The position numbers were made by a program, and so were the translations under genes. The notes under the pieces are model-generated. The model was given only the letters and a program-made list of their open reading frames with translations. It had not been told where the DNA came from and did no database searches. 32,030 bases of DNA from a virus (lineage: Duplodnaviria; Heunggongvirae; Uroviricota; Caudoviricetes), in IMG/VR virus record IMGVR_UViG_647533159_000006; one strand, written 5' to 3'. Position 1 is the first letter of the stretch; every line of letters begins with the position of its first letter. This document shows, piece after piece, positions 3,014 to 23,407 of the stretch.

Positions 3014-3237
3014 TGCCGGACAACGTAGATTTTATTCAGGAACAACAGGCTGAATTACTGGAGCGCCAGATTAACGCGGCAAGGGTAAAACATTGTGGTG
3101 CTTCTGCGCTGGTTTGCGAAGAGTGTGACGCGCCAATACCTGCTGCCCGTCGTGCGGCTTATCCGTCAGCCACGCGTTGTGTTTCCTGTCAGTCAGTCTT
3201 TGAAGCAAAAAACAAACATTACCGGAGAACGGCATGA
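3013..3237 (+). CDS. TraR/DksA-family C4 zinc-finger protein (P2 orf82 position)
   Basis: 74 aa with CxxC...CxxC (CEECDAPIPAARRAAYPSATRCVSCQ), typical of TraR/DksA-type zinc fingers. Confidence 0.6.
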   Translation: MPDNVDFIQEQQAELLERQINAARVKHCGASALVCEECDAPIPAARRAAYPSATRCVSCQSVFEAKNKHYRRTA

Positions 3238-3509
3238 GTATTCGTATTGAAATTGGCGAACGTTATGTCGTTACCAGTGACAGCTTTCAGTTTATTCTCC
3301 ACGAGAAAAAGAGAGCTGAAAGCGGTAAAAATGCCGGTCAGGAATGGCTGGCGGTAGTTGGTTATTACCCGAAATTAAGCCAGCTCGTTTCCGGCCTGAT
3401 GCATCACGATATTCTGACCGGAAGCGCAAAATCTTTTGCTGATTTAAACGCGCAGGTTGAGCAACTCAGCAAGCGTTGTTCAGAGGCTTTTGGCTCACAT
3501 GGCCGTTAA
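3234..3509 (+). CDS. Hypothetical early protein (P2 orf83 position)
   Basis: 91-aa ORF coupled to orf82 and overlapping the start of A. Confidence 0.5.
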   Translation: MSIRIEIGERYVVTSDSFQFILHEKKRAESGKNAGQEWLAVVGYYPKLSQLVSGLMHHDILTGSAKSFADLNAQVEQLSKRCSEAFGSHGR

Positions 3510-5784
3510 AGCCTCCGGGCATTTTGTCCCTCCGTCAGCATTTGCCGCAGGCACCGGTAAGACGTTTACCGGTGCTTATGCATGGAACGCGCCACGCGAG
3601 GCCGTCGGGCGCGAAAGACCTCTTACACGTGACGAGATGCGTCAGGTGCAAGGTGTTTTATCCACGATTAACCGCCTGCCTTACTTTTTGCGCTCGCTGT
3701 TTACTTCACGCTATGACTACATCCGGCGCAATAAAAGCCCGGTGCACGGGTTTTATTTCCTCACATCCACTTTTCAGCGTCGTTTATGGCCGCGCATTGA
3801 GCGTGTGAATCAGCGCCATGAAATGAACACCGACGCGTCGTTGCTGTTTCTGGCAGAGCGTGAGCACTATGCGCGCCTGCCGGGAATGAATGACAAGGAG
3901 CTGAAAAAGTTTGCCGCCCGTATCTCATCGCAGCTTTTCATAATGTATGAGGAACTCTGCGATGCCTGGGTGGATGCGCATGGCGAGAAAGAATCGCTGT
4001 TTACGGATGAGGCGCAGGCTCACCTGTATGGTCATGTTGCTGGCGCTGCACGTGCTTTCAATATTTCCCCGCTCTACTGGAAAAAATACCGTAAAGGGCA
4101 GATGACCACGAGGCAGGCATATTCTGCCATTGCCCGTCTGTTTAACGATGAGTGGTGGACTCATCAGCTTAAAGGCCAGCGTATGCGCTGGCATGAGGCG
4201 TTACTGATTGCTGTCGGGGAGGTCAATAAAGACCGTTCTCCTTATGCCAGTAAACATGCCATTCGTGATGTGCGTGCGCGCCGCCAGGCAAATCTGGAAT
4301 TTCTTAAATCGTGTGACCTTGAAAACAAGGAAACCGGCGAGCGCATCGACCTTATCAGTAAGGTGATGGGCAGTATTTCTAATCCAGAAATTCGCCGGAT
4401 GGAGCTGATGAACACCATCGCCGGTATTGAGCGTTACGCTGCCGCAGAGGGTGATGTGGGGATGTTTATCACGCTGACCGCGCCGTCAAAGTATCACCCG
4501 ACACGTCAGGTCAGAAAAGGCGAAAGTAAAACCGTCCAGCTAAATCACGGCTGGAATGATGAGGCATTTAATCCAAAGGATGCGCAGCGTTATCTCTGCC
4601 GTATCTGGAGCCTGATGCGCACGGCATTCAAGGATAATGATTTACAGGCCTACGGTTTGCGTGTTGTTGAACCACACCACGACGGAACGCCGCACTGGCA
4701 TATGATGCTTTTTTGTAATCCACGCCAGCGTAACCAGATTATTGAAATCATGCGTCGCTACGCGCTCAAAGAGGATGGAGACGAAAGAGGAGCCGCGCGA
4801 AACCGTTTTCAGGCAAAACATCTTAACCGGGGCGGTGCTGCGGGGTATATCGCGAAATACATCTCAAAAAATATCGACGGCTATGCACTGGATGGTCAGC
4901 TCGATAATGATACCGGCAGACCGCTGAAAGATACTGCCGCGGCTGTTACCGCATGGGCGTCAACGTGGCGCATCCCGCAATTTAAAACGGTTGGTCTGCC
5001 GACAATGGGGGCTTACCGTGAACTACGCAAATTGCCTCGCGGCGTCAGCATTGCTGATGAGTTTGACGAGCGCGTCGAGGCTGCACGCGCCGCTGCAGAC
5101 AGTGGTGATTTTGCGTTGTATATCAGCGCGCAGGGCGGGGCAAATGTCCCGCGCGATTGTCAGACTGTCAGGGTCGCCCGTAGCCCGTCGGATGAAGTTA
5201 ACGAGTACGAGGAAGAAGTCGAGAGAGTGGTCGGCATTTACGCGCCGCATCTCGGCGCGCGTCATATTCATATCACCAGAACCACGGACTGGCGCATTGT
5301 GCCGAAAGTGCCGGTCGTTGAGCCTTTGACTTTAAAAAGCGGCATCGCCGCGCCTCGGAGTCCTGTCAATAACTGTGGAAAGCTCACCGGTGGTGATACT
5401 TCGTTACCGGCTCCCACGCCTTCTGAGCACGCCGCAGCAGTGCTTAATCTGGTTGATGACGGTGTTATCGAATGGAATGACCCGGAGGTCGTGAGGGCGC
5501 TCAGGGGCGCATTAAAACACGGCCTGAGAAGACCAAATCGTCAGCAAAGAAACGGAAGCCCGTTAAAACCGCATGAAATTGCACCATCGGCCAGACTGAC
5601 CCGGTCTGAACGATTGCAAATCACCCGTATCCGCGTTGACCTTGCTCAGAACGGTATCAGGCCGCAGCGATGGGAGCTTGAGGCGCTGGCGCGTGGCGTG
5701 ACCGTAAATTATGACGGGAAAAAATTCACGTATCCGGTCGCTGATGAGTGGCCGGGGTTCTCAAAAGTAATGGAGTGGACATAA
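3499..5784 (+). CDS. A: Replication initiation protein A (rolling-circle HUH endonuclease)
   Basis: ATG at 3499 (MAVKASGHFVPP...) gives 761 aa; contains the HUH motif (PHWHMMLF) and a tyrosine pair (GYIAKYISK) typical of rolling-circle initiators; the track ORF starts upstream at 3457 in frame. Confidence 0.9.
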   Translation: MAVKASGHFVPPSAFAAGTGKTFTGAYAWNAPREAVGRERPLTRDEMRQVQGVLSTINRLPYFLRSLFTSRYDYIRRNKSPVHGFYFLTSTFQRRLWPRIERVNQRHEMNTDASLLFLAEREHYARLPGMNDKELKKFAARISSQLFIMYEELCDAWVDAHGEKESLFTDEAQAHLYGHVAGAARAFNISPLYWKKYRKGQMTTRQAYSAIARLFNDEWWTHQLKGQRMRWHEALLIAVGEVNKDRSPYASKHAIRDVRARRQANLEFLKSCDLENKETGERIDLISKVMGSISNPEIRRMELMNTIAGIERYAAAEGDVGMFITLTAPSKYHPTRQVRKGESKTVQLNHGWNDEAFNPKDAQRYLCRIWSLMRTAFKDNDLQAYGLRVVEPHHDGTPHWHMMLFCNPRQRNQIIEIMRRYALKEDGDERGAARNRFQAKHLNRGGAAGYIAKYISKNIDGYALDGQLDNDTGRPLKDTAAAVTAWASTWRIPQFKTVGLPTMGAYRELRKLPRGVSIADEFDERVEAARAAADSGDFALYISAQGGANVPRDCQTVRVARSPSDEVNEYEEEVERVVGIYAPHLGARHIHITRTTDWRIVPKVPVVEPLTLKSGIAAPRSPVNNCGKLTGGDTSLPAPTPSEHAAAVLNLVDDGVIEWNDPEVVRALRGALKHGLRRPNRQQRNGSPLKPHEIAPSARLTRSERLQITRIRVDLAQNGIRPQRWELEALARGVTVNYDGKKFTYPVADEWPGFSKVMEWT

Positions 5785-6233
5785 TGGCAAAAATTCACGA
5801 GGTAAAGCTGCACGCAAAATATTTTGACCTTGTACTGGAAGGAAAGAAACGAGCAGAGTTTCGTAAAAATGACCGTAATTATGAGTGCGGGGACACGTTG
5901 ATTTTGCATGAATGGGTGCAGGGGGTGTATACGGGGCGAAAGGTTGAAACCCGGATAACGGATGTTACTGACCTGTCAGACTGGATGGAAGGTTATGTCT
6001 TGCTAAGTATTGAGCTGCTTAATACAGGCGCATATGAGATTGTGAACTGGAAAGAACTTAGTGAGCGTGGTCTGGTATTCAGAATTAATCATGACATTAT
6101 GCATCAGCTCGGCCTTGCTGTTATGTATGAACCAGAGACGGGGATGTCTGGCGGGGCAATGGTTGCCACGGATGGAGCATGGAACTATTCAGATGAACAG
6201 ATGGAGCATGCAAAGCAAAATGGGTGGTTTTGA
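5785..6233 (+). CDS. ASCH/DUF3850-like (PUA-fold) domain protein
   Basis: ATG at 5785 immediately after the A stop (MAKIHEVKLHAKYFDLVLEGKKRAEFRKNDRNYECGDTLILHEW...), a pattern I recognise as DUF3850/ASCH-like; this is a motif-level call. Confidence 0.45.
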
Positions 6234-6235
6234 AA

Positions 6236-6472
6236 ATGCACAGAATACCGGGTGAGATACCGCTGCATAACACTAAAAATATCAAGCTGATGGCCATTGT
6301 TCACCGTCTACAACAGATTATGGTCAATGAGAATCTGACGCCCGATGAGCTAGTCGGGTGCGCTGAAATTGTCAGGGATAATTACGGACGGTTCAACGAT
6401 ATCAGTCGACCGAAAGTTAAGACATATCAACCATATAATATGCTTAAACAACCACCACGCAGGCTTGAGTAA
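6236..6472 (+). CDS. Hypothetical small protein
   Basis: 78-aa ORF from the ATG at 6236 (track ORF 6224..6472); no recognisable motif. Confidence 0.35.
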   Translation: MHRIPGEIPLHNTKNIKLMAIVHRLQQIMVNENLTPDELVGCAEIVRDNYGRFNDISRPKVKTYQPYNMLKQPPRRLE

Positions 6473-6613
6473 ACGCCGCTAGTGCTGAAACTTGCTTTCT
6501 GGGCTAGCGGCGTTGAACAACGAGCGTAGTGAGGCGTTAGTTATGTAAAGTTAAAGTAATTTAAAACAGTATATTAGTGGAAAGGATGTTGAGAGTATTC
6601 GGTTACGAGAGGG

Positions 6614-6651
6614 AATGGATGTATTTACAGAAAATGGATGTATTTACAGAA
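6614..6651. repeat. Perfect 19-bp tandem direct repeat (aatggatgtatttacagaa x2)
   Basis: Read directly: 6614..6632 and 6633..6651 are identical; lies in the AT-rich intergenic region about 140 bp upstream of the methyltransferase start. Confidence 0.8.
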
Positions 6652-6793
6652 ATTGTTGGATTAATTGTAGTAAAGCTAGGATAGGATAAGGCCTTAGGGC
6701 TGGATGTGGGGAGCCTTCTTGTAGTTTGCTAAAACGCTCGAGATTTTTGAAGGATACAGTTATACTCTGCCGGAGGATGAATCGGAGACTAAA

Positions 6794-7831
6794 ATGGCGG
6801 TAAAAGTTGTTGATCTTTTTTGTGGTGCTGGCGGGCTTACTCATGGCTTAAAGCAAGCCGGATTAGATGTAGTCGCTGGTATTGATATAGAGAGTGCATG
6901 CCGGGTTGCTTATGAAAGTAATAACAGTGCGCTTTTTATTGAAAAAGATATTTCTCTGGTGACCAAAGACGAGCTTAACGATCTTTTTGAAGGTGCGCAG
7001 GTCAGGGTGTTGGCTGGTTGTGCGCCGTGCCAACCTTTTTCAAGGTATACGCAAGGGCGCGATAAGAAAAATGATAAAAAGTGGCCTCTTCTTTATGAAT
7101 TTGAACGTTTAATTCGAGGGGTTAATCCAGAGATCGTTACAATGGAAAATGTGCCTGATGTAACGAAGCATTCTGTTTATAGTGACTTCTATAATAGTTT
7201 AGAGGCATTGGGTTATCATGTCTGGGCCGGAAAGGTTGAATGTGTAGATTATGGTGTTCCGCAAAATAGAGTAAGGCATGTATTATTGGCATCTAAATTT
7301 GCGCCGCTTTCATTTGTAAAACCAAAAGTAGAAAAGGCGGTGACGGTAAAAGAATGCATTGGCGGACTTCCTCCATTAAAGGCAGGTCAAACGGATCCTG
7401 TTGATCCTTTACATAAAGCAAGTAAATTAAGTGATATAAATCTAAAACGTATTGCTTGCTCTAAACCAGGAGGGACATGGCGAGACTGGCCAGTAGAGTT
7501 GATTGCATCATGCCACATAAAGAAAAGTGGGCAAGGTTATGCTAGTGTATACGGACGTATGGATTGGGATAAACCAAGTCCTACAATTACTACGCTATGT
7601 TATGGTTTTGGAAATGGCAGATTTGGTCATCCAGAGCAAAATCGTGCAATTTCTCTGAGAGAGGCTGCATTGTTGCAAACGTTTCCAAAGGATTACGTTT
7701 TTACTGCACCCAATGAGAAAGTATCTATAAAGAATGTTGGTAGGATGATTGGTAATGCAGTACCGGTAAAACTAGGTGAGGTTATAGGTGAGTCAATTAT
7801 AACTCACCTAAAAGAGCACAATATAGTTTAA
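6794..7831 (+). CDS. DNA (cytosine-5)-methyltransferase
   Basis: 345 aa with canonical C5-MTase motifs: I DLFCGAGG, IV PCQPFS, VI ENV, VIII QNRVR, X GNAVP; GGAG Shine-Dalgarno 7 nt upstream of the ATG. Confidence 0.9.
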   Translation: MAVKVVDLFCGAGGLTHGLKQAGLDVVAGIDIESACRVAYESNNSALFIEKDISLVTKDELNDLFEGAQVRVLAGCAPCQPFSRYTQGRDKKNDKKWPLLYEFERLIRGVNPEIVTMENVPDVTKHSVYSDFYNSLEALGYHVWAGKVECVDYGVPQNRVRHVLLASKFAPLSFVKPKVEKAVTVKECIGGLPPLKAGQTDPVDPLHKASKLSDINLKRIACSKPGGTWRDWPVELIASCHIKKSGQGYASVYGRMDWDKPSPTITTLCYGFGNGRFGHPEQNRAISLREAALLQTFPKDYVFTAPNEKVSIKNVGRMIGNAVPVKLGEVIGESIITHLKEHNIV

Positions 7832-8559
7832 GCATGTAGTCTTGATGATCGTATGTATAAGCGATCATCAAGGTATTTTTGTATGTTTTCTAGTATTTCT
7901 TCTAGGTAATGGAAAACTTCATTTTTAAGAAGTTCAAGGTTGTCAATAGACGTTTCTTGACCCTTGTTTAAAAAGGATTCTGAACCATGTGCCAATGCAT
8001 TTCTTGCTTTTTTTATGTTTACTAAATTTCCACCATTATGAGTTTTTGAACGATCTGTTTGATAGGAAAAACCATAGATATTAGCAACATCCCTAATTTT
8101 CTGTGCGTCAACATTTCCCGAAAATAGGGGGTTTTTATCTGCTTGAACTTGTTTTTTGTGTTCCTCTAGCCATTTTTTTAGAACTAGTTTTGCTATATCA
8201 CCTTGTGAAAAATCCATGTCACTCACCATATGATGGTCTAATTTTTTTAAGGCAAGCTTTGTTAAACTTTCGCAAATCTTATCGACACAAAGATCATCGC
8301 ACGAATTAAGTTCATTATGTATGTCTTCAATAGCATTAGATATAGTGGCTTCAATTAAGTTATATAATATAATAAACGCATTGGCTTTAAGGATATGCGT
8401 CATTTCGATATCGATTTCGCGGTGTTTACATTCGCCTGCTGTGCGATCTTTGTACGAGAAAGTTGGTCTCTCATCAATAATGAATTTAACAAAATTAAAA
8501 TATTTTTCTATATCTTCTTTTCTTTCAGAAAATAAAATTTTGCTGTTCATAATGACCAC
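7828..8559 (-). CDS. HEPN-like protein with Rx4H motif (putative RNase/effector), second gene of the DUF262 operon
   Basis: 243-aa ORF (GTG start 8559 with GGAG upstream; alternative ATG at 8550); C-terminal KKARNALAHG matches the HEPN Rx4-6H signature; 6 bp downstream of the DUF262 gene on the same strand; 3' end overlaps the MTase 3' end by 4 bp. Confidence 0.55.
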   Translation of the reverse strand: MVIMNSKILFSERKEDIEKYFNFVKFIIDERPTFSYKDRTAGECKHREIDIEMTHILKANAFIILYNLIEATISNAIEDIHNELNSCDDLCVDKICESLTKLALKKLDHHMVSDMDFSQGDIAKLVLKKWLEEHKKQVQADKNPLFSGNVDAQKIRDVANIYGFSYQTDRSKTHNGGNLVNIKKARNALAHGSESFLNKGQETSIDNLELLKNEVFHYLEEILENIQKYLDDRLYIRSSRLHA

Positions 8560-8565
8560 GGATAG

Positions 8566-9690
8566 TTACTCCTCACTATCATCTAGAACAGTATCTTCGG
8601 TCTGCACACCTAAAAGTTTGTCTCTTACATATTCAATACGTGCTTTTACTTTAGGTTTTGAGTTTGACGCATCAGATCTTGTATGTTTAATAAACTCTTC
8701 TGAGTTTAACCATTCCTCTACCGGTGTTGGTATTATGTTAGAGTTAGTTTTTAAGGCTAAAGTGGAACCGACAGCTAACGCTTCAAAGCGAATTCTTGGT
8801 ACAGTGTTTGCTGTTGCATTCTTTCTGAAACCATAGGGGAAATGTGTTTTGACAAATTCACACATATCTTGAAATTGTGCAGTTAGTTTTTCTTCTTGCT
8901 CAGGACTAAATGACTCATTTCGTTGGTCAAGATATTGGGTTAAGAAAGTATCAACACTTTTTTCAAAGTTAAGATAGTTATCACAATAGGCAAAATATCT
9001 AAGAACCAATTCTGGATATTCTCCACGACTGATTCTGGCATCGTTTAGAGGGCATATTTCCCTAAACAATGGAAACTCTGATAGTCTATTAACAACATCA
9101 AGAAAAGGCCCATCATTACTGCCCTGTCGTTGCTCCATTGTCGTGAGTTTTATTCCACCTGTATTCAATCGATCGAAAATCTCCCTTCTTGCTTCTTCAT
9201 CACATAATTCAGTGAGTTCAATCATTCGAATAGTTTTTCTATCGAATCTAAGCTTACGTGCAGGTGTGAAGTCAGAGTATTTGAATCCGTTGGCTGAAGT
9301 TAACTTTTTTAATCCAGTAAGGGTAAATTTATCATTTAGAAAATGATAAAGTGTTCTAATCCTCTGGCTACCATCAACGATTTCCAATCGCCCATCGTCA
9401 TTTCCGATATCGGCAACAAATACATATGGGATAGGAATATTTAGCAAAAGCGATTCAATGAATCTTGATTTTTGAACATTGCTCCAAACAAATTCCCTTT
9501 GATAATCAGGTATGTATAGTTCTGCTTGGTCGGTTTCTAATCCTTTCTGAAATTTGTCAACAATGACACTTACAGGAAACTCTCTAATTTGGTGATCCGT
9601 TATTTTTTGCATGGATTTGATCTGGTTATCCAGGTCAACTTTATCTTCTTCTGTGATCACTTGTTCAGGTTGTCTTGGGACTCTTGCCAT
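8566..9690 (-). CDS. DUF262 (ParB/Srx-like NTPase-fold) domain protein
   Basis: ATG at 9690 preceded by AAGGAG (track ORF extends to a GTG at 9765); DUF262 motifs IPDYQREFVW, IVDGSQRIRTL and FDRLNTGGIKLT; about 170 C-terminal residues without a recognisable HNH/DUF1524 motif. Confidence 0.75.
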   Translation of the reverse strand: MARVPRQPEQVITEEDKVDLDNQIKSMQKITDHQIREFPVSVIVDKFQKGLETDQAELYIPDYQREFVWSNVQKSRFIESLLLNIPIPYVFVADIGNDDGRLEIVDGSQRIRTLYHFLNDKFTLTGLKKLTSANGFKYSDFTPARKLRFDRKTIRMIELTELCDEEARREIFDRLNTGGIKLTTMEQRQGSNDGPFLDVVNRLSEFPLFREICPLNDARISRGEYPELVLRYFAYCDNYLNFEKSVDTFLTQYLDQRNESFSPEQEEKLTAQFQDMCEFVKTHFPYGFRKNATANTVPRIRFEALAVGSTLALKTNSNIIPTPVEEWLNSEEFIKHTRSDASNSKPKVKARIEYVRDKLLGVQTEDTVLDDSEE

Positions 9691-9833
9691 TTGTTTTCTC
9701 CTTATGCTTATTTGCAATAAGTTGCATTTGTTTGCATGCGTAGTTTTATACTGATTTAATCCCACAAGTCCTTTACATGCAAGGGTTAGAGGCTTAAATG
9801 CACCTGCATTAAAACCGCCTTATGAAGCGGGCA

Positions 9834-9852
9834 GGCGAGGCGGGGAAAGCAC
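9834..9852. other. cos site (P2-type 19-nt cohesive end ggcgaggcggggaaagcac)
   Basis: Matches the P2 cohesive-end sequence as I recall it; located between the cargo and the portal gene, where P2 cos lies. Confidence 0.6.
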
Positions 9853-9993
9853 TGCGCGCTGGCGGTGGTGCTGATTTTATTTTTTCAGCGTCTCAGCGCG
9901 TCGTGACGGCGTTTGGATTGTGCGCCGGGGCGTTGGTGTGTCTGCGGGGTGTTTTGTGCGGTGGTGAGCGTGTGAGGGCGTGATGACGGGGTG

Positions 9994-10016
9994 TAAAAAA
10001 GCCGCCCGCAGGCGGC
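9994..10016 (-). terminator. Rho-independent terminator downstream of Q
   Basis: On the minus strand: gccgcc-tgcg-ggcggc hairpin followed by a T-run (plus-strand aaaaaa 9995..10000), directly after the Q stop. Confidence 0.65.
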
Positions 10017-10021
10017 GATGT

Positions 10022-11056
10022 TCAGCCGTTGTCAGTGTCCAGTGAGTAGTTTTTAAAGCGGATGACCTCCTGACCGAGCCAGCCGTTTATCTCGCGGATC
10101 CTGTCCTGTAACGGGATAAGCTCATTGCGGACAAAGACCTTTGCCACTTTCTCAATATCTCCCAGTGACCCGACGTTCTCCGGCTTGCCGCCCATCAACT
10201 GAAAGGGGATGCGGTGTGCGTCCAGCAGGTCAGCGGCGCTGGCTTTTTTGATATTAAAAAAATCGTCCTTCGTTGCCACTTCACTGAGCGGGATAATTTT
10301 AATGCCGTCAGCTTTCCCCTGCGGGGCATAGAGAAACAGGTTTTTAAAGTTGTTGCGGCCTTTCGACTTCACCATGTTTTCGCGAAGCATTTCGATATCG
10401 TTGCGATCCTGCACGGCATCGGTGACGTACATGATGTATCCGGCATGTGCGCCGTTTTCGTAATACTTGCGGCGGAACAGCGTGGCCGACTCATTCAGCC
10501 AGGCAGAGTTAAGGGCGCTGAGATATTCCGGCAGGCCGTACAACTCCTGATTAATATCCGGCTCCAGCAGGTGAAACACGGAGCCGGGCGCGAAGGCTGT
10601 CGGCTCGTTGAAGGACGGCACCCACCAGTAAACATCCTCTTCCACACCACGGCGGGTATATTTTGCCGGTGAGGTTTCCAGTCTGATGACCTTACCGGTG
10701 GTGCTGTAACGCTTTTCCAGAAACGCATTACCGAACACCAGAAAATCCAGCACAAAGCGGCTGAAATCCTGCTGAGAAAGCCACGGATGCGGAATAAACG
10801 TTGAAGCCAGAATATTGCGTTTAACGTAAATCGGCGAGCTGTGATGCACGGCAGCACGCAGGCTTTTTGCCAGACCGGTAAAGCTGACCGGTGGCTCATA
10901 CCATCTGCCGTTACTGATGCACTCGACGTAATCCAGAATGTCACGGCGGTCGAGAACCGGCACCGGCTCGCCAAAGGTGAATGCCTCCATTTTCGGTGCA
11001 CTGGCGGTCATTGTTTTTGCCGCAGGTTGCGGTGTTTTCCCTTTTTTCTTGCTCAT
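10022..11056 (-). CDS. Q: Portal protein
   Basis: 344 aa (P2 gpQ length), minus strand, upstream neighbour of the large terminase, adjacent to cos. Confidence 0.85.
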   Translation of the reverse strand: MSKKKGKTPQPAAKTMTASAPKMEAFTFGEPVPVLDRRDILDYVECISNGRWYEPPVSFTGLAKSLRAAVHHSSPIYVKRNILASTFIPHPWLSQQDFSRFVLDFLVFGNAFLEKRYSTTGKVIRLETSPAKYTRRGVEEDVYWWVPSFNEPTAFAPGSVFHLLEPDINQELYGLPEYLSALNSAWLNESATLFRRKYYENGAHAGYIMYVTDAVQDRNDIEMLRENMVKSKGRNNFKNLFLYAPQGKADGIKIIPLSEVATKDDFFNIKKASAADLLDAHRIPFQLMGGKPENVGSLGDIEKVAKVFVRNELIPLQDRIREINGWLGQEVIRFKNYSLDTDNG

Positions 11057-12828
11057 CAGTAAAACTCCAGAATGGTGGATGTCAGCGGGGTGCTGATACT
11101 GGCGGTGAGTGGCTCATTTAACAGGGCGTGCATGGTCGCCCAGGCGAGGTCGGCGTGGCTGGCTTCCTCGCTGCGGCTGGCCTCATAGGTGGCACTGCGT
11201 CCGCTGCTGGTCATGGTCTTGCGGATAGCCATAAACGAGCTGGTGATGTCGGTGGCGCTGACGTCATATTCCAGACAGCCACGGCGGATGACGTCTTTTG
11301 CCTTGAGCACCATTGCGGTTTTCATTTCCGGCGTGTAGCGGATGTCGCGCGCGGCGGGATAGAACGAGCGCACGAGCTGGAACACGCCGACACCGAGGCC
11401 GGTGGCATCAATACCGATGTATTCGACGTTGTATTTTTCGGTGAGTTCGCGGATGGATTCAGCCTGGGTGGCAAAGTCCATGCCTTTCCACTGGTGACGC
11501 TCAAGTATTCTGAATTTGCCACCGGCCACCACCGGCGGTGCCAGTACCACGCATCCGGCACTGTCGCCACGGTGTGACGGGTCGTAACCAATCCATACCG
11601 GGCGGGAGCCGAACGGATTGGCGGCAAAGGGTGCATAGTCTTCCCATTCTTCCAGCGTGTCGACCATGCAGCGTTGCAGCTCCTCGAACGGGAACACCGA
11701 CGCCTTGTCGTCAACAAATTCACACATGAACAGGTTTTTAAAATCGTCGGCGCTGTTTTCGCGTTTGAGCTGCTCAATGTCGAACAACGTGCAGCCGCCT
11801 TTCAGCGCGTCCTCAATGGTGACAATCTGCCGCCACTGGCCGTCCGCACAGAGAAGCCCACCGGCAAGGGCGTTATGACTGACGTCGATTTCCACGCGAT
11901 CGGCGGCGCTGGCGCGTCCCCGGTTAAACAGTTCACCCGACCAGAACGGGTAGGCGTCGTGCGCCAGCGTGGACGGGGTGGAGAAATAGGTCGAGCGCAG
12001 GTGACTCTGTGAGGCCATACCTGATGCCACCTTACGCAGTACCTGAAAATTCGGGATCCAGAAAATCTCGTCGACGTACAGGTCACCGTTATGGCTCTGT
12101 GCGGTGTTGGAGTTGGTGCCGAGAAAAATCAGTTTTGCGCCGTTATTGCCCAGGACAATCGGGTCACCGGTCAGGTCAACGTCAACCAGACGGGCAAAGG
12201 CGATGATGTATTCGCGGAACACATACGCCTGCGTTTTACTGGCCGACAGAAAAATCTGGTTATGACCGGTTTTCAGGGCGCGCAGCAGCGCCTCGCGGGA
12301 AAAATAAAACGTCGCGCCAATCTGGCGGGATTTCAGGATATCGCGGATGCGGTGCTCAAGCCCGGCGCGATACCAGTGCAACTGATATTCGAAAGACTGC
12401 TCAAAGAAAATCTGCTCCAGCTTTTCGATGGCCTCGTCACTGAAAAAATTTTTTTTCGGTTTGCGACGCCCGCCTTTGTTGCGGTTAGCGATGTTCGGAT
12501 TAAGGTCTGCCTCGTTGCCGGTCTGGCTGTAGCGGTTTACCCGTGCCAGTCGTTCAATCTGGCGTCCGAGCAGGTCAATTTCCTTGAAGTCACCGCCGGT
12601 TTTCTGCGGTTTGATGATGAGCTGGGTCAGCCGCGCTTCCAGACTCATTTCGACACGGCTGATGGGGGCAATGCTGTCCCAGCCGTCGCGCTGTTTCCAG
12701 CTCTGCACCGTCGGACGTTTCATCTGCAACATGGCGGCAATCTGCGGCACGGAAAACCCCTGCCAGTACAGCAGCGCCGCCTGACGACGCGGGTCGTGTA
12801 AAAGAGTGGTGTCTGTGGTGATGGTCAT
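11056..12828 (-). CDS. P: Terminase large subunit (ATPase)
   Basis: 590 aa from the ATG at 12828 (MTITTDTTLLHDP...); track ORF extends to 12858; divergent from the O-N-M capsid operon as in P2. Confidence 0.85.
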   Translation of the reverse strand: MTITTDTTLLHDPRRQAALLYWQGFSVPQIAAMLQMKRPTVQSWKQRDGWDSIAPISRVEMSLEARLTQLIIKPQKTGGDFKEIDLLGRQIERLARVNRYSQTGNEADLNPNIANRNKGGRRKPKKNFFSDEAIEKLEQIFFEQSFEYQLHWYRAGLEHRIRDILKSRQIGATFYFSREALLRALKTGHNQIFLSASKTQAYVFREYIIAFARLVDVDLTGDPIVLGNNGAKLIFLGTNSNTAQSHNGDLYVDEIFWIPNFQVLRKVASGMASQSHLRSTYFSTPSTLAHDAYPFWSGELFNRGRASAADRVEIDVSHNALAGGLLCADGQWRQIVTIEDALKGGCTLFDIEQLKRENSADDFKNLFMCEFVDDKASVFPFEELQRCMVDTLEEWEDYAPFAANPFGSRPVWIGYDPSHRGDSAGCVVLAPPVVAGGKFRILERHQWKGMDFATQAESIRELTEKYNVEYIGIDATGLGVGVFQLVRSFYPAARDIRYTPEMKTAMVLKAKDVIRRGCLEYDVSATDITSSFMAIRKTMTSSGRSATYEASRSEEASHADLAWATMHALLNEPLTASISTPLTSTILEFY

Positions 12829-13001
12829 GAATACCTCGCCGTGATGAATACACGGCAAGGCTACTGAGTCGCGCCCCGCGATTCGCTAAGGTGCTGTTGT
12901 GTCAGTGATAAGCCATCCGGGACTGATGGCGGAGGATGCGCATCGTCGGGAAACTGATGCCGACATGTGACTCCTCTAATCACTATTCAGGACTCCTGAC
13001 A

Positions 13002-13856
13002 ATGGCAAAAAAAGTCTCAAAATTCTTTCGTATCGGCGTTGAGGGTGACACCTGTGACGGGCGTGTCATCAGTGCGCAGGATATTCAGGAAATGGCGGAA
13101 ACCTTTGACCCGCGTGTCTATGGTTGCCGCATTAACCTGGAGCATCTGCGCGGCATCCTGCCTGACGGTATTTTTAAACGTTATGGCGATGTGGCCGAAC
13201 TGAAGGCCGAAAAGATTGACGATGATTCGGCGCTGAAAGGCAAATGGGCGCTGTTTGCGAAAATCACCCCGACCGATGACCTTATCGCGATGAACAAGGC
13301 CGCGCAGAAGGTCTATACCTCAATGGAAATTCAGCCGAACTTTGCCAACACCGGCAAGTGTTATCTGGTGGGGCTGGCCGTCACCGATGACCCGGCAAGC
13401 CTCGGCACGGAATACCTGGAATTCTGCCGCACGGCAAAACACAACCCCCTGAACCGCTTCAAATTAAGCCCTGAAAACCTGATTTCAGTGGCAACGCCCG
13501 TTGAGCTGGAATTTGAAGACCTGCCTGAAACCGTGTTCACCGCCCTGACCGAAAAGGTGAAGTCCATTTTTGGCCGCAAACAGGCGAGCGATGACGCCCG
13601 TCTGAATGACGTGCATGAAGCGGTGACCGCTGTCGCTGAACATGTGCAGGAAAAACTGAGCGCCACTGAGCAGCGCCTCGCTGAGATGGAAACCGCCTTT
13701 TCCGCACTTAAGCAGGAGGTGACAGACAGGGTGGATGAAACCAGTCAGGCATTCACCCGCCTGAAAAACAGTCTCGACCACACCGAAAGTCTGACCCAGC
13801 AGCGCCGCAGCAAGGCCACCGGTGGTGGCGGTGACGCCCTGATGACGAACTGCTGA
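13002..13856 (+). CDS. O: Capsid scaffolding protein
   Basis: 284 aa from the ATG at 13002 (MAKKVSKFFRIGVEG...); coiled-coil-like C-terminus; precedes the major capsid gene. Confidence 0.8.
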   Translation: MAKKVSKFFRIGVEGDTCDGRVISAQDIQEMAETFDPRVYGCRINLEHLRGILPDGIFKRYGDVAELKAEKIDDDSALKGKWALFAKITPTDDLIAMNKAAQKVYTSMEIQPNFANTGKCYLVGLAVTDDPASLGTEYLEFCRTAKHNPLNRFKLSPENLISVATPVELEFEDLPETVFTALTEKVKSIFGRKQASDDARLNDVHEAVTAVAEHVQEKLSATEQRLAEMETAFSALKQEVTDRVDETSQAFTRLKNSLDHTESLTQQRRSKATGGGGDALMTNC

Positions 13857-22854: not shown

Positions 22855-23407
22855 NNNNNNNNNNNNNNNNNNNNNNNNNNNNNNNNNNNNNNNNNNNNNN
22901 NNNNNNNNNNNNNNNNNNNNNNNNNNNNNNNNNNNNNNNNNNNNNNNNNNNNNNNNNNNNNNNNNNNNNNNNNNNNNNNNNNNNNNNNNNNNNNNNNNNN
23001 NNNNNNNNNNNNNNNNNNNNNNNNNNNNNNNNNNNNNNNNNNNNNNNNNNNNNNNNNNNNNNNNNNNNNNNNNNNNNNNNNNNNNNNNNNNNNNNNNNNN
23101 NNNNNNNNNNNNNNNNNNNNNNNNNNNNNNNNNNNNNNNNNNNNNNNNNNNNNNNNNNNNNNNNNNNNNNNNNNNNNNNNNNNNNNNNNNNNNNNNNNNN
23201 NNNNNNNNNNNNNNNNNNNNNNNNNNNNNNNNNNNNNNNNNNNNNNNNNNNNNNNNNNNNNNNNNNNNNNNNNNNNNNNNNNNNNNNNNNNNNNNNNNNN
23301 NNNNNNNNNNNNNNNNNNNNNNNNNNNNNNNNNNNNNNNNNNNNNNNNNNNNNNNNNNNNNNNNNNNNNNNNNNNNNNNNNNNNNNNNNNNNNNNNNNNN
23401 NNNNNNN
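22855..23407. other. Assembly gap (553 N)
   Basis: Contiguous n characters; lies between the two hix-like sites. Confidence 1.

What the first reader, a model, noticed from the sequence alone, without database searches (positions are those of the whole stretch)
7828..9765. Two-gene DUF262 + HEPN-like operon in the P2 tin/old hotspot: candidate uncharacterised anti-phage system
The slot between gene A and cos, where P2 carries tin and old, is a known hotspot for defence cargo in P2-like prophages. Here it holds a minus-strand operon: a 374-aa DUF262 (ParB/Srx-like) protein with motifs DYQREFVW, DGSQR and FDRLNTGG but no C-terminal HNH/DUF1524 nuclease motif that I can see, then 6 bp later a 243-aa protein whose only recognisable feature is a C-terminal Rx4H motif (ARNALAH) typical of HEPN RNases. 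DUF262 is normally fused to a DUF1524/HNH nuclease (GmrSD, BrxU, SspE); here the effector role may be supplied in trans by the HEPN-like partner. I cannot match this pair to a named defence system from memory.
Basis: partly seen in the sequence, partly recalled or inferred. Interest (0 to 1): 0.85.

Follow-up and report, generated by a model that had tools for sequence, protein, structure and literature searches.

The report
Methylase-linked DUF262–HEPN prophage defence module
A P2-like prophage carries, in its known defence-cargo slot, a conserved three-gene unit (a DNA cytosine methylase, a ParB-like DUF262 protein and a HEPN RNase) that resembles the validated but mechanistically unknown PD-T4-2 anti-phage system and probably works like a restriction-modification system whose weapon cuts RNA rather than DNA.

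Summary
The two minus-strand genes are real: a 374-aa DUF262/ParB-like protein with no nuclease domain, and a 240-243-aa HEPN protein with an invariant RNxLAHG motif and a confident HEPN fold. They lie between P2 gene A and cos. They are not an unknown kind. DUF262+HEPN is the architecture of PD-T4-2 (Vassallo 2022), which is validated against T4. [quoted passage not shown] PADLOC's PD-T4-2_B model does not match the partner, so this is a sister variant, not a member. The main correction is that the unit has three genes. The convergent C5 methyltransferase at 6794-7831 is a DISARM DrmMII-type enzyme and accompanies the pair in about 90% or more of evaluable loci across many phyla, in two gene orders. 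In class-1 DISARM operons the pair is nested between DrmMI and DrmA. Elsewhere the same methylase pairs with a GHKL 'restriction' protein, including in the same P2 slot. The best reading is a methylation-gated DUF262 sensor with a HEPN RNase effector. The gating step is inferred and has some evidence against it. It is a new variant of a known kind, of moderate interest.

The parts
6794..7831 (+). C5 DNA cytosine methyltransferase of the DISARM DrmMII type (345 aa). It converges on the HEPN gene and shares a 4-nt overlap at the stop codons (7828-7831). I propose it as the self-marking component of the module.
   Evidence: Pfam PF00145 at 1.3e-54. PADLOC DrmMII at 6.1e-94, near full length. All canonical motifs are present (FCGAGG, PCQ, ENV, QNRVR, GNAVP). 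An ortholog lies next to the pair in 108 of 128 loci in two gene orders. It is 57-58% identical to the C5 MTase that heads class-1 DISARM operons containing the pair. The TRD region is near-invariant across phyla.
7828..8559 (-). HEPN RNase-like protein of the MAE_28990 family (243 aa from GTG 8559, or 240 aa from ATG 8550). It is the predicted effector. The catalytic motif R-N-A-L-A-H is R183/H188 in 240-aa numbering and R186/H191 in 243-aa numbering.
8566..9690 (-). DUF262 (ParB/Srx-like NTPase fold) protein with a C-terminal helical domain, in an NsnA-like two-domain architecture (374 aa). It has no nuclease domain. It is the predicted DNA sensor and regulator.
9698..9703 (-). Shine-Dalgarno AAGGAG, 7 nt upstream of the DUF262 ATG. 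It supports the 374-aa start over the longer GTG 9765 ORF.
   Evidence: Read directly from the sequence. RefSeq uses the same start in NZ_CP147056.
7839..7874 (+). 14-bp hairpin followed by a T-run, immediately downstream of the MTase stop and inside the 3' end of the HEPN coding sequence. It is a terminator-like element for the convergent MTase transcript.
   Evidence: Terminator-like scan. This is a consensus match only; function was not tested.
9834..9852 (+). cos cohesive-end sequence GGCGAGGCGGGGAAAGCAC. It marks the boundary of the cargo slot and places the operon directly next to cos.
   Evidence: One exact match in the window, zero in 100 shuffles. Its identity as the P2 cos end rests on my own knowledge of P2.

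Best explanation
The locus is a three-gene, methylation-linked anti-phage module carried as cargo in the P2 A-cos hotspot. Shown: the anatomy and its conservation, the domain and fold assignments, and the intact catalytic motifs. Inferred: the DrmMII-type C5 methyltransferase marks resident DNA (host plus prophage) at a fixed short motif. The DUF262 protein (a ParB-like NTPase domain plus a C-terminal DNA-binding domain) acts as the DNA sensor, as its relatives do in SspE, BrxU and, by prediction, Menshen NsnA. It forms a complex with the translationally coupled HEPN protein. When it meets DNA lacking the mark, or otherwise phage-specific, NTP-dependent switching releases the HEPN RNase. The RNase cleaves cellular and/or phage RNA (tRNA, rRNA or mRNA) and stops translation, giving abortive infection or growth arrest. 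In short, the DUF262-HEPN pair fills the 'restriction' slot of a restriction-modification-like cassette, but its effector cuts RNA. My estimates by layer are: three-gene unit about 0.9; defence function about 0.8; HEPN as an RNase effector controlled by DUF262 about 0.6; activity gated by the methyl mark about 0.45.
For: Pair linkage. DUF262 is immediately followed by HEPN in 79 of 80 species-representative genome loci and in 48 of 48 HEPN-anchored viral loci. The spacing is an overlap (-4 in 31 loci, -1 in 10) or 0-15 nt in 122 of 127 loci.
MTase linkage. An orthologous C5 MTase lies next to the pair in 108 of 128 loci: 76 in the order DUF262>HEPN><MTase as in the window, 30 as a co-directional MTase>DUF262>HEPN operon, and 2 as DUF262>HEPN>MTase. 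Among 73 evaluable species genomes, 64 have the ortholog adjacent and 2 have a different C5 MTase in the same position (a third such replacement is in a viral locus). Five are nested in or next to DISARM, and only 2 have no MTase nearby. In the DISARM-nested loci whose upstream end is visible, the same MTase family (57-58% identity to the window's) heads the operon: MTase-DrmD-DrmMI-DUF262-HEPN-DrmA-DrmB-DrmC.
Slot equivalence. The same MTase family pairs alternatively with a GHKL ATPase that PADLOC's REase_II models match (26 loci). This includes the identical P2 position gpA > MTase >< GHKL. Both partners occur together on a Tn7-like element.
Co-inheritance. Pairwise distances of the three proteins are correlated (rho 0.50, 0.33 and 0.13; at most 1 of 300 permutations reached each value).
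Active sites. RNxLAHG, DGSQR, DYQR and FDRLNxGG are invariant or nearly so.
Folds. HEPN fold and ParB/Srx/BrxU/SspE fold.
Defence setting. The module is found in the P2 hotspot, Tn7 cargo, an integrase-bounded island beside another R-M system, and DISARM.
Precedent. PD-T4-2 (DUF262+HEPN) protects against T4 both natively and in K-12. In the Ssp system, SspE couples a self-modification writer to a DUF262 reader. DrmMII methylation marks self in DISARM.
Against: No experiment exists for this family. Three observations count against gating by methylation. (1) In the P2_4B2 lineage the MTase is frameshifted in a poly-G tract in two independent records (G6 and G8, against the intact G7) while identical DUF262 and HEPN genes stay intact. 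Loss of the MTase may therefore be tolerated, unless these are homopolymer sequencing errors. (2) Related DUF262+HEPN pairs lack any MTase: PD-T4-2 as cloned, and the pairs in a Klebsiella Reipivirus and a Vibrio phage. Two cyanobacterial loci also have none nearby. (3) The C-terminal half of the DUF262 protein shows no special divergence in the three loci whose C5 MTase is non-orthologous, so there is no sign of co-adaptation to a recognition site. About 40% of MTase-anchored loci with room on both sides showed no pair (43 of 109). This is an upper bound, because DISARM-nested pairs lie beyond the 4-kb flanks. RNA cleavage, the RNA target and any DUF262-HEPN contact are all untested. The DUF262 model is only moderately confident (pLDDT 73.7).
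Confidence: 0.5

Rival explanations
1. The pair is an autonomous sensor-effector, as in PD-T4-2, possibly modification-dependent in the manner of a Type IV system. In this reading DUF262-HEPN detects a phage-specific feature, such as hypermodified cytosines of T-even phages or a replication intermediate, independently of the neighbouring methylase. The MTase is linked for a complementary reason: to protect the mobile element's DNA from restriction, or to act as a separate defence or epigenetic function. The precedent is BrxU, which complements BREX.
For: PD-T4-2 works when cloned without any methylase and acts on T-even phages. MTase-less DUF262+HEPN pairs exist in other prophages. MTase frameshifts coexist with an intact pair. 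GmrSD/BrxU-type DUF262 proteins read modified DNA and are often embedded in methylation-based systems as complements. The DUF262 C-terminal half does not track MTase type. DrmMII alone was reported to give some anti-phage effect.
Against: Mere complementarity does not predict about 90% adjacency across many phyla, nor 4-nt-overlapping MTase>DUF262>HEPN operons. It also does not predict replacement by other C5 MTases in the same position, or a lone MTase with no other restriction partner as the usual companion. A sensor that recognises modified cytosine sitting next to an m5C writer would risk self-targeting.
Confidence: 0.25
2. The pair is a guard or backup, following PrrC-type logic. The HEPN RNase is held latent by the DUF262 protein, the methylase or the DISARM machinery. 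It fires when a phage counter-defence (a DNA mimic, SAM depletion or a methylase/DISARM inhibitor) disables the methylation-based system, giving a second abortive layer.
For: The pair is nested inside class-1 DISARM operons, co-directional and overlapping DrmA. PrrC, an RNase nested in a Type I R-M system, is the classic precedent and is almost always found embedded. The HEPN protein evolves fastest of the three (31% median identity against 48% and 56%), as might be expected for a component in an arms race.
Against: In most loci, including this window, there is no restriction machinery to guard. Only the MTase is present. The DUF262 protein keeps invariant NTPase and DNA-binding-type motifs, which fits a DNA sensor better than a passive antitoxin.
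Confidence: 0.12
3. The locus is a true Type II-like restriction-modification system in which the ParB-fold DUF262 protein is itself the DNase acting on unmethylated DNA. HEPN would then be an accessory subunit, or the pair could be a toxin-antitoxin/addiction module that stabilises the prophage.
For: Anantharaman et al. called the partner a 'ParB nuclease'. PADLOC's REBASE-derived model REase_II PDLC03418 weakly matches the DUF262 protein at 2.5e-8. A Vibrio phage homolog is annotated 'RM_Type_II Type_II_REases'. HEPN proteins are common toxins in TA pairs.
Against: In the characterised DUF262 proteins (GmrSD, BrxU, SspE) this domain is an NTPase/sensor and a separate His-Me domain cuts DNA. 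No nuclease domain is detectable here. The HEPN catalytic motif is invariant, which argues that HEPN is the active effector and not an accessory. TA logic does not explain the methylase.
Confidence: 0.1

Closest known systems
PD-T4-2 (Vassallo et al. 2022, E. coli ECOR65)
   Same: It is a two-gene operon with a DUF262 protein lacking a nuclease domain, followed by a small HEPN protein that HHpred assigns to the same two Pfam families (PF18735 at 97.8%, PF18737 at 96.9%). It comes from the E. coli mobilome and is a validated anti-phage system of unknown mechanism. The window's DUF262 protein matches PADLOC PD-T4-2_A nearly full length at 1.7e-34.
   Different: PD-T4-2 is 1,540 bp in total, with a B protein of about 165 aa, and was cloned and functional without a methylase. 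Here the HEPN protein is 240 aa, does not match PADLOC PD-T4-2_B even at E 0.1, and the pair is tightly linked to a DrmMII-type MTase. The DUF262 protein scores higher on NsnA than on PD-T4-2_A. I could not compare sequences directly because the ECOR65 contig is not in the collections.
MAE_28990 HEPN gene neighbourhood (Anantharaman et al. 2013, Biol Direct)
   Same: This is exactly the triad. [quoted passage not shown] The window's protein passes the Pfam PF18737 gathering threshold.
   Different: That record is a single line from an in-silico survey. It gives no system definition, no experiment, no link to P2 hotspots or DISARM, and no mechanism.
Menshen (NsnA-NsnB-NsnC)
   Same: The DUF262 protein has the NsnA architecture, a ParB-DUF262 domain plus a C-terminal 'ParBDB' DNA-binding domain, and NsnA is its best PADLOC match (5.9e-56 over aa 23-357). 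Menshen effectors are also mostly RNases.
   Different: There is no NsnB ABC ATPase and no NsnC inPIN effector next to it. A HEPN protein follows directly instead.
GmrSD / BrxU / SspE (DUF262-DUF1524 enzymes)
   Same: They share the DUF262 ParB/Srx fold and conserved QR, DGxQR and FxxxN motifs. BrxU and SspE are the top structural neighbours. SspE also works with a cognate self-DNA-modification writer.
   Different: There is no DUF1524/HNH nuclease domain. The motif is DGSQR, not DGQQR. The effector is a separate RNase-type protein. The modification is m5C, not phosphorothioate.
DISARM (DrmMII methylase; class 1 DrmD-DrmMI-DrmA-DrmB-DrmC)
   Same: The window's MTase belongs to the DrmMII family (6.1e-94) and is 57-58% identical to the C5 MTase that heads class-1 DISARM operons. 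Those operons contain an orthologous DUF262-HEPN pair between DrmMI and DrmA.
   Different: The window has no DrmA, DrmB, DrmC, DrmD or DrmMI. Only the methylase and the nested pair are present, as a stand-alone cassette.
PrrC-EcoprrI and HEPN-MNT toxin-antitoxin pairs
   Same: These are latent HEPN-type RNases controlled by a partner protein. PrrC is embedded in a methylation-based R-M locus. HepT toxins are the nearest solved folds.
   Different: There is no ABC-ATPase domain as in PrrC and no MNT nucleotidyltransferase. The control partner here is a DUF262 protein.

Membership tests
HEPN superfamily / Pfam PF18737 HEPN_MAE_28990 | Profile match above the curated gathering score | tested here: met
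   75.5 bits against a cutoff of 26.8, E 8.6e-21, covering aa 10-235. PF18735 also passes, at 30.5 against 28.4.
HEPN superfamily / Pfam PF18737 HEPN_MAE_28990 | Conserved Rx4-6H catalytic motif | tested here: met
   R-N-A-L-A-H. R, N, L, A, H and G are invariant in 26 homologs down to 21% identity; R, N, L, H and G are at least 97% conserved in 109 homologs.
HEPN superfamily / Pfam PF18737 HEPN_MAE_28990 | Four-helix up-down HEPN fold | tested here: met
HEPN superfamily / Pfam PF18737 HEPN_MAE_28990 | RNase activity | not testable with these tools
   Needs biochemistry or RNA-end mapping.
PD-T4-2 (as defined by PADLOC: PD-T4-2_A + PD-T4-2_B) | Component A: match to the PD-T4-2_A profile | tested here: inconclusive
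   1.7e-34, 117.5 bits, nearly full length, but NsnA scores higher at 188.4 bits. This indicates a relative, not a close ortholog.
PD-T4-2 (as defined by PADLOC: PD-T4-2_A + PD-T4-2_B) | Component B: match to the PD-T4-2_B profile | tested here: not met
   No PADLOC family at E up to 0.1 for the HEPN protein. The same holds for four homologous partners and a fifth.
PD-T4-2 (as defined by PADLOC: PD-T4-2_A + PD-T4-2_B) | Architecture: a nuclease-less DUF262 gene followed by a RiboL-PSP/MAE_28990-type HEPN gene | tested here: met
   compared with Vassallo Tables S1/S3.
PD-T4-2 (as defined by PADLOC: PD-T4-2_A + PD-T4-2_B) | Anti-phage activity | not testable with these tools
   Needs a phage challenge.
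Menshen (NsnABC) | NsnA-like protein (ParB-DUF262 + ParBDB) | tested here: met
   PADLOC NsnA at 5.9e-56, aa 23-357 against profile positions 34-377 of 385.
Menshen (NsnABC) | Adjacent NsnB ABC ATPase and NsnC effector | tested here: not met
   The neighbours are HEPN, the MTase and cos/portal. There is no ATPase gene.
GmrSD-family Type IV restriction enzyme | DUF262 N-terminal domain | tested here: met
GmrSD-family Type IV restriction enzyme | DUF1524/His-Me nuclease domain, fused or as a GmrD partner | tested here: not met
   No Pfam hit beyond aa 188. The C-terminal half is all-helical. The partner is a HEPN protein.
Restriction-modification-like cassette (methylase + restriction module) | Cognate DNA methyltransferase conserved next to the effector genes | tested here: met
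   108 of 128 loci carry the ortholog, 3 more carry other C5 MTases, and the DISARM-nested loci carry the same family.
Restriction-modification-like cassette (methylase + restriction module) | Effector activity blocked by the cognate methylation; MTase needed for self-protection | not testable with these tools
   The indirect evidence is mixed. Slot equivalence with the GHKL 'REase_II' partner supports it. Tolerated MTase frameshifts count against it.
DISARM | DrmMII-type C5 methylase | tested here: met
   PADLOC DrmMII PDLC02651 at 6.1e-94, aa 1-339 against profile positions 1-357 of 371.
DISARM | Core DrmA-DrmB-DrmC genes | tested here: not met
   Absent from the window's slot between gene A and cos. 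They are present only in the nested relatives L301-L304.
P2-like prophage defence hotspot #1 (between gene A and cos/portal) | Location between the replication endonuclease gene and cos/portal of a P2-like element | tested here: met
   The hotspot is defined in Rousset 2022 and Vassallo 2022.

The most novel reading that the evidence does not exclude
The triad may be a restriction-modification system with an RNA-cutting arm. A ParB-like DUF262 NTPase would read the presence or absence of the DrmMII-type m5C mark on DNA and, on unmarked invading DNA, switch on a HEPN RNase. DNA-methylation-based self/non-self discrimination would then be coupled directly to translational shutdown instead of DNA cleavage. 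The same pair, nested between DrmMI and DrmA, would be a previously unrecognised effector or sensor arm of a class-1 DISARM clade, which could help explain how DISARM links methylation status to immunity.
Probability: 0.35. Interest if true: 0.8.

Novelty: new variant of a known kind. Interest (0 to 1): 0.58.

Why it matters
PD-T4-2-type DUF262+HEPN systems are validated defences with no known trigger or mechanism. This family supplies a clue that PD-T4-2 lacks: a nearly obligatory, highly conserved DrmMII-type methylase partner. The same methylase swaps between a GHKL 'restriction' protein, DISARM and the DUF262-HEPN pair. That makes a specific hypothesis directly testable with standard host-controlled-modification experiments, namely that a methyl mark read on DNA controls an RNase output. 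The finding also points to an unannotated two-gene insert in a clade of class-1 DISARM operons (for example in Ralstonia pseudosolanacearum, 173 member sequences in one cluster). It shows that current PADLOC models miss this family. If the gating fails, the locus is still a useful, widely distributed relative for working out how nuclease-less DUF262 proteins control effectors supplied in trans.

Tried and rejected
- WonAB (WASA-1 prophage of V. cholerae) looked possible because the paper mentions DUF262. It is an ABC ATPase plus a PD-(D/E)xK nuclease; the DUF262 text refers to GrwAB.
- DARNA is PD-T7-3, a single HEPN protein, and is unrelated.
- The enterobacterial GmrSD cluster survey (Nat Commun 2025) and the EcoSal R-M review do not describe a DUF262+HEPN+MTase system. 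A full-text search for RiboL-PSP + HEPN + methyltransferase + defense returned nothing.
- I tried to fetch ECOR65 contig QOYX01000002 to align PD-T4-2 directly. It is not in the collections.
- Two MTase-less DUF262+HEPN pairs found by tblastn (Klebsiella Reipivirus and a Vibrio phage) are also not recognised by PD-T4-2_B. No canonical PD-T4-2 sequence was obtained.
- Sequence-profile searches of the PDB found no solved relative of either protein.
- I considered that the DISARM-nested pairs rely on the m6A methylase DrmMI and not on a C5 MTase. Longer flanks showed the same C5 MTase family at the head of the operon in the two loci whose upstream end is visible, so I dropped this for those loci; the Ralstonia loci are cut before that position.
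- I tested whether the DUF262 C-terminal half diverges where the methylase differs. It does not. The DISARM loci in that test turned out to carry the same MTase family, so only 3 loci are informative.
- I considered a phase-variable MTase in this window. The poly-G tract is absent here (CCAGGAGGG).
- The sigma-70 scan found no convincing promoter for the operon. Matches were fewer than in shuffles.
- The MTase's target motif could not be inferred. PDB relatives align only over the catalytic motifs.


Full report
OBSERVATION. The window is a P2-like prophage. It has an integrase side, the replication endonuclease gene A at 3457-5784, and portal, terminase, capsid and tail genes from 10022 onward. 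Between gene A and the sequence GGCGAGGCGGGGAAAGCAC at 9834-9852, which I recall as the P2 cos cohesive end, lies an AT-rich block (33-37% GC against about 55-58% for the rest).

The upstream ORF is 374 aa from ATG 9690, preceded by AAGGAG at a 7-nt spacing. Six nucleotides after its stop begins the second ORF, which is 243 aa from GTG 8559 or 240 aa from ATG 8550 as RefSeq calls it. All the quoted motifs are present.

Pfam assigns PF03235 (GmrSD_N/DUF262) to residues 55-188 of the first protein and nothing else. It assigns PF18737 (HEPN_MAE_28990, 8.6e-21) plus PF18735 (RiboL-PSP HEPN) to the second.

PADLOC's NsnA (Menshen) model covers residues 23-357 at 5.9e-56, and PD-T4-2_A covers 61-354 at 1.7e-34. 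The protein therefore has the two-domain 'ParB-DUF262 + ParBDB' architecture described for NsnA. Neither family has a solved relative detectable by sequence.

WHAT WAS ALREADY KNOWN. PD-T4-2 from E. coli ECOR65 is listed by Vassallo et al. as 'DUF262, HEPN'. Its two ORFs span 1,540 bp. The second ORF is unannotated and about 165 aa, and HHpred assigns it to PF18735 (97.8%) and PF18737 (96.9%). The system protects against T4 both in its native strain and in K-12.

Anantharaman et al. [quoted passage not shown] RefSeq already annotates the identical E. coli locus as 'DUF262 domain-containing protein | MAE_28990/MAE_18760 family HEPN-like nuclease | DNA cytosine methyltransferase'.

The pair therefore does match a known architecture. 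However, no PADLOC model matches the HEPN partner even at E 0.1. The same is true for homologous partners in P2_4B2, a Moraxella phage, a Klebsiella Reipivirus and a Vibrio phage. This family is a sister of PD-T4-2, not a member, and PADLOC 2.0 would not report it. I found no paper in the library that tests the methylase-linked form.

THE UNIT HAS THREE GENES. The ORF at 6794-7831 on the plus strand converges on the HEPN gene with a 4-nt overlap of the stop codons. It is a complete C5 cytosine methyltransferase (PF00145 at 1.3e-54; PADLOC DrmMII at 6.1e-94).

I scanned one genome per GTDB species with the DUF262 alignment. This gave 523 relatives, and I examined the best 80 loci. They span Proteobacteria, Bacteroidota, Cyanobacteria, Acidobacteriota, Planctomycetota, Verrucomicrobiota and a CPR genome. 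I also scanned IMG/VR with the HEPN alignment and obtained 48 loci.

With HMMs built from my alignments, DUF262 is immediately followed by HEPN in 79 of 80 genome loci and in 48 of 48 viral loci. The spacing is an overlap (-4 in 31 loci, -1 in 10) or 0-15 nt in 122 of 127 loci.

An ortholog of the window's MTase (48-82% identical) is directly adjacent in 108 of 128 loci. The order is DUF262>HEPN><MTase in 76 loci, as in the window. It is a co-directional, often overlapping MTase>DUF262>HEPN operon in 30 loci, and DUF262>HEPN>MTase in 2.

Of the 79 species genomes with a resolved pair, 73 are evaluable because they are not cut by a contig end. Of these, 64 have the ortholog adjacent, 2 have a different C5 MTase in the same place, 5 lie in or next to DISARM, and only 2 (both cyanobacteria) have no MTase nearby. 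A third non-orthologous replacement occurs in a viral locus.

The MTase is the most conserved of the three proteins, with a median identity to the window's protein of 56%. The DUF262 protein is at 48% and HEPN at 31%. The MTase's variable target-recognition region is nearly invariant across phyla, which implies one shared methylation target. Pairwise distances of the three proteins are congruent: DUF262-HEPN rho 0.50, MTase-HEPN 0.33, DUF262-MTase 0.13, each reached by at most 1 of 300 permutations.

THE METHYLASE IS A SHARED MODULE WITH INTERCHANGEABLE PARTNERS. I anchored on the MTase family in metagenomes and IMG/VR. Among loci with room on both sides, 66 carry the pair and 43 do not.

In the loci without the pair, the neighbour in 26 loci is a 550-715-aa GHKL/HATPase_c_3 protein matched by PADLOC's REBASE-derived 'REase_II' models, with E as low as 1e-92 in these loci. 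In 7 loci the neighbour is a DISARM DrmD/DrmA-type helicase. In IMG/VR P2-like contigs the arrangement gpA > MTase >< GHKL-REase occupies the same slot and orientation as gpA > ... MTase >< HEPN < DUF262 in the window. On a Tn7-like element in Pseudomonas-type contigs, both partners are present: DUF262-HEPN-GHKL-<MTase.

In Alcanivorax, Ralstonia pseudosolanacearum, Herbaspirillum and related genomes the pair is nested in full class-1 DISARM operons. The order is C5 MTase-DrmD-DrmMI-DUF262-HEPN-DrmA-DrmB-DrmC, co-directional and overlapping. The C5 MTase at the head of those operons is 57-58% identical to the window's enzyme over its full length. The count of 43 'without pair' is therefore an upper bound, since a nested pair would lie beyond the 4-kb flanks.

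HOW IT MOST LIKELY WORKS. The shown facts are the anatomy, the conservation, the intact motifs, the folds, and the mobile or defence-island settings: the P2 hotspot, Tn7 cargo, an integrase-bounded island beside an MvaI/BcnI R-M system, and DISARM. The rest is inferred from family knowledge.

DUF262 domains in BrxU, GmrSD and SspE are NTPase/sensor domains that control a separate effector, and SspE works with a cognate self-modification writer. NsnA is predicted to be a DNA sensor upstream of RNase effectors. HEPN proteins in defence are RNases that cut tRNA, mRNA or rRNA. DrmMII methylation marks self in DISARM; Serratia DrmMII writes m5C at MTCGAK and the Bacillus enzyme at CCWGG.

Taken together, the best model is a methylation-gated DUF262 DNA sensor that switches on a HEPN RNase, stopping translation in infected cells. 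The pair plays the 'R' role of an R-M-like cassette.

The gating step is the weakest part. In the P2_4B2 lineage the MTase carries a poly-G tract that reads G7 (intact) in E. coli 181.1, G6 in strain 2015C-4136CT1 and G8 in the phage record LR595873. The DUF262 and HEPN genes are identical and intact in all three. This could be sequencing error, phase variation or genuine tolerance of MTase loss. The third possibility has a precedent: deleting the methylases of class-1 DISARM is not autoimmune. In addition, MTase-less relatives function or at least exist. The DUF262 C-terminal half is not specially diverged in the three loci that carry a non-orthologous MTase.

Rival readings are an autonomous PD-T4-2-like or Type IV-like sensor with a complementary methylase, a PrrC-like guard, and a ParB-fold DNase or toxin-antitoxin module. 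They are listed with their tests in the rival-explanations section.

NOVELTY AND VERDICT. The finding is real but was over-rated as an unmatched system. It is a new variant of a known kind. It has the PD-T4-2 architecture and uses the HEPN family whose ParB + methylase neighbourhood was noted in 2013, but it has not been characterised experimentally and PADLOC misses it.

This analysis adds four points.
- The unit has three genes and is very tightly conserved.
- The methylase is DrmMII-type and has an invariant TRD.
- The pair is interchangeable with a GHKL 'restriction' protein in the same P2 slot.
- The pair is nested in a clade of class-1 DISARM operons.

The version in this window is rare in E. 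coli, at 4 of 5,426 complete genomes, plus 3 genomes with the P2_4B2-type version. I score interest at about 0.58. The most novel reading the evidence does not exclude is a restriction-modification system whose restriction arm is an RNase, and which also serves as a DISARM accessory arm. I give that reading a probability of about 0.35 and an interest of about 0.8 if true.

Noticed in passing
window 22856-23407: A run of about 550 N in the tail-fibre region explains the 7.6% 'GC' block in the composition profile. It is a gap or mask, not biology.
   Followed up: yes
window 5748-6233 (+) and 6224-6472 (+): Two further cargo genes lie between gene A and the methylase. One is a DUF3850/ASCH + DUF7415 protein (phrog_1812; ASCH domains are RNA-binding). 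The other is a small ORF (phrog_11386). P2_4B2 lacks them: its methylase follows gene A directly. Their function and any relation to the module are unknown.
   Followed up: partly
L002 (LR595873) 3175-4222; L134 (NZ_CP027550) 1677-2722; L135 (NZ_CP059907) 1676-2722: In the P2_4B2-type version, the methylase has a poly-G tract (codons for P-G-G) that reads G8, G6 and G7 in three records. It is frameshifted in two of them while identical DUF262 and HEPN genes stay intact. This could be phase variation, homopolymer sequencing error, or tolerated loss of the methylase. The window itself has CCAGGAGGG, with no tract.
   Followed up: partly
L301 (Alcanivorax), L302/L303 (Ralstonia pseudosolanacearum), L304 (Herbaspirillum frisingense); pair at 8883-10762 in each: An orthologous DUF262-HEPN pair is nested between DrmMI and DrmA in complete class-1 DISARM operons, co-directional and overlapping. 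In Herbaspirillum an AspBHI/Mrr-type gene is inserted after HEPN, and a Vsr gene follows the C5 methylase.
   Followed up: partly
L246, L254, L255, L257 (IMG/VR P2-like contigs), about 3900-7080: The same P2 slot carries gpA > DrmMII-type methylase >< a GHKL/HATPase_c_3 protein matched by PADLOC 'REase_II' models, in place of DUF262-HEPN. This is an alternative cassette built on the same methylase.
   Followed up: partly
L138-L140 (Pseudomonas protegens-type contigs), 8001-13358: A Tn7-like transposon (TnsABCDE) carries DUF262-HEPN-GHKL 'REase_II'-<methylase as cargo.
   Followed up: no
L131 (Klebsiella phage ST16-OXA48phi5.4) 2860-4763; L132 (Vibrio phage 10N.286.55.C7_PE004) 2809-5080: These are methylase-less NsnA-like DUF262 + RiboL-PSP-HEPN pairs in other prophage cargo spots. 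One lies between tail genes of a Peduoviridae phage and the other next to cI. PADLOC's PD-T4-2_B model recognises neither partner.
   Followed up: partly
phage records such as AY343333 (RB49) 115086-115457, NC_009821 (Phi1), NC_012740 (JSE): About 46 Escherichia phage records, mostly of the RB49/Krischvirus (T4-like) group, encode a short protein matching only the DUF262 core (query residues 61-189, 37-39% identity). It could be a phage-borne NTPase or a decoy against DUF262-based defences.
   Followed up: no
window 7828-7874: The methylase and HEPN genes share a palindromic TTAA stop overlap. A 14-bp hairpin with a T-run, just past the methylase stop, lies inside the HEPN coding sequence. Convergent transcription could couple their expression.
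   Followed up: no
alignments of 96-118 homologs and identities to the window proteins: The HEPN effector evolves much faster (31% median identity) than the DUF262 protein (48%) and the methylase (56%). The methylase's target-recognition region is almost invariant across phyla, which is unusual for R-M methylases.
   Followed up: partly
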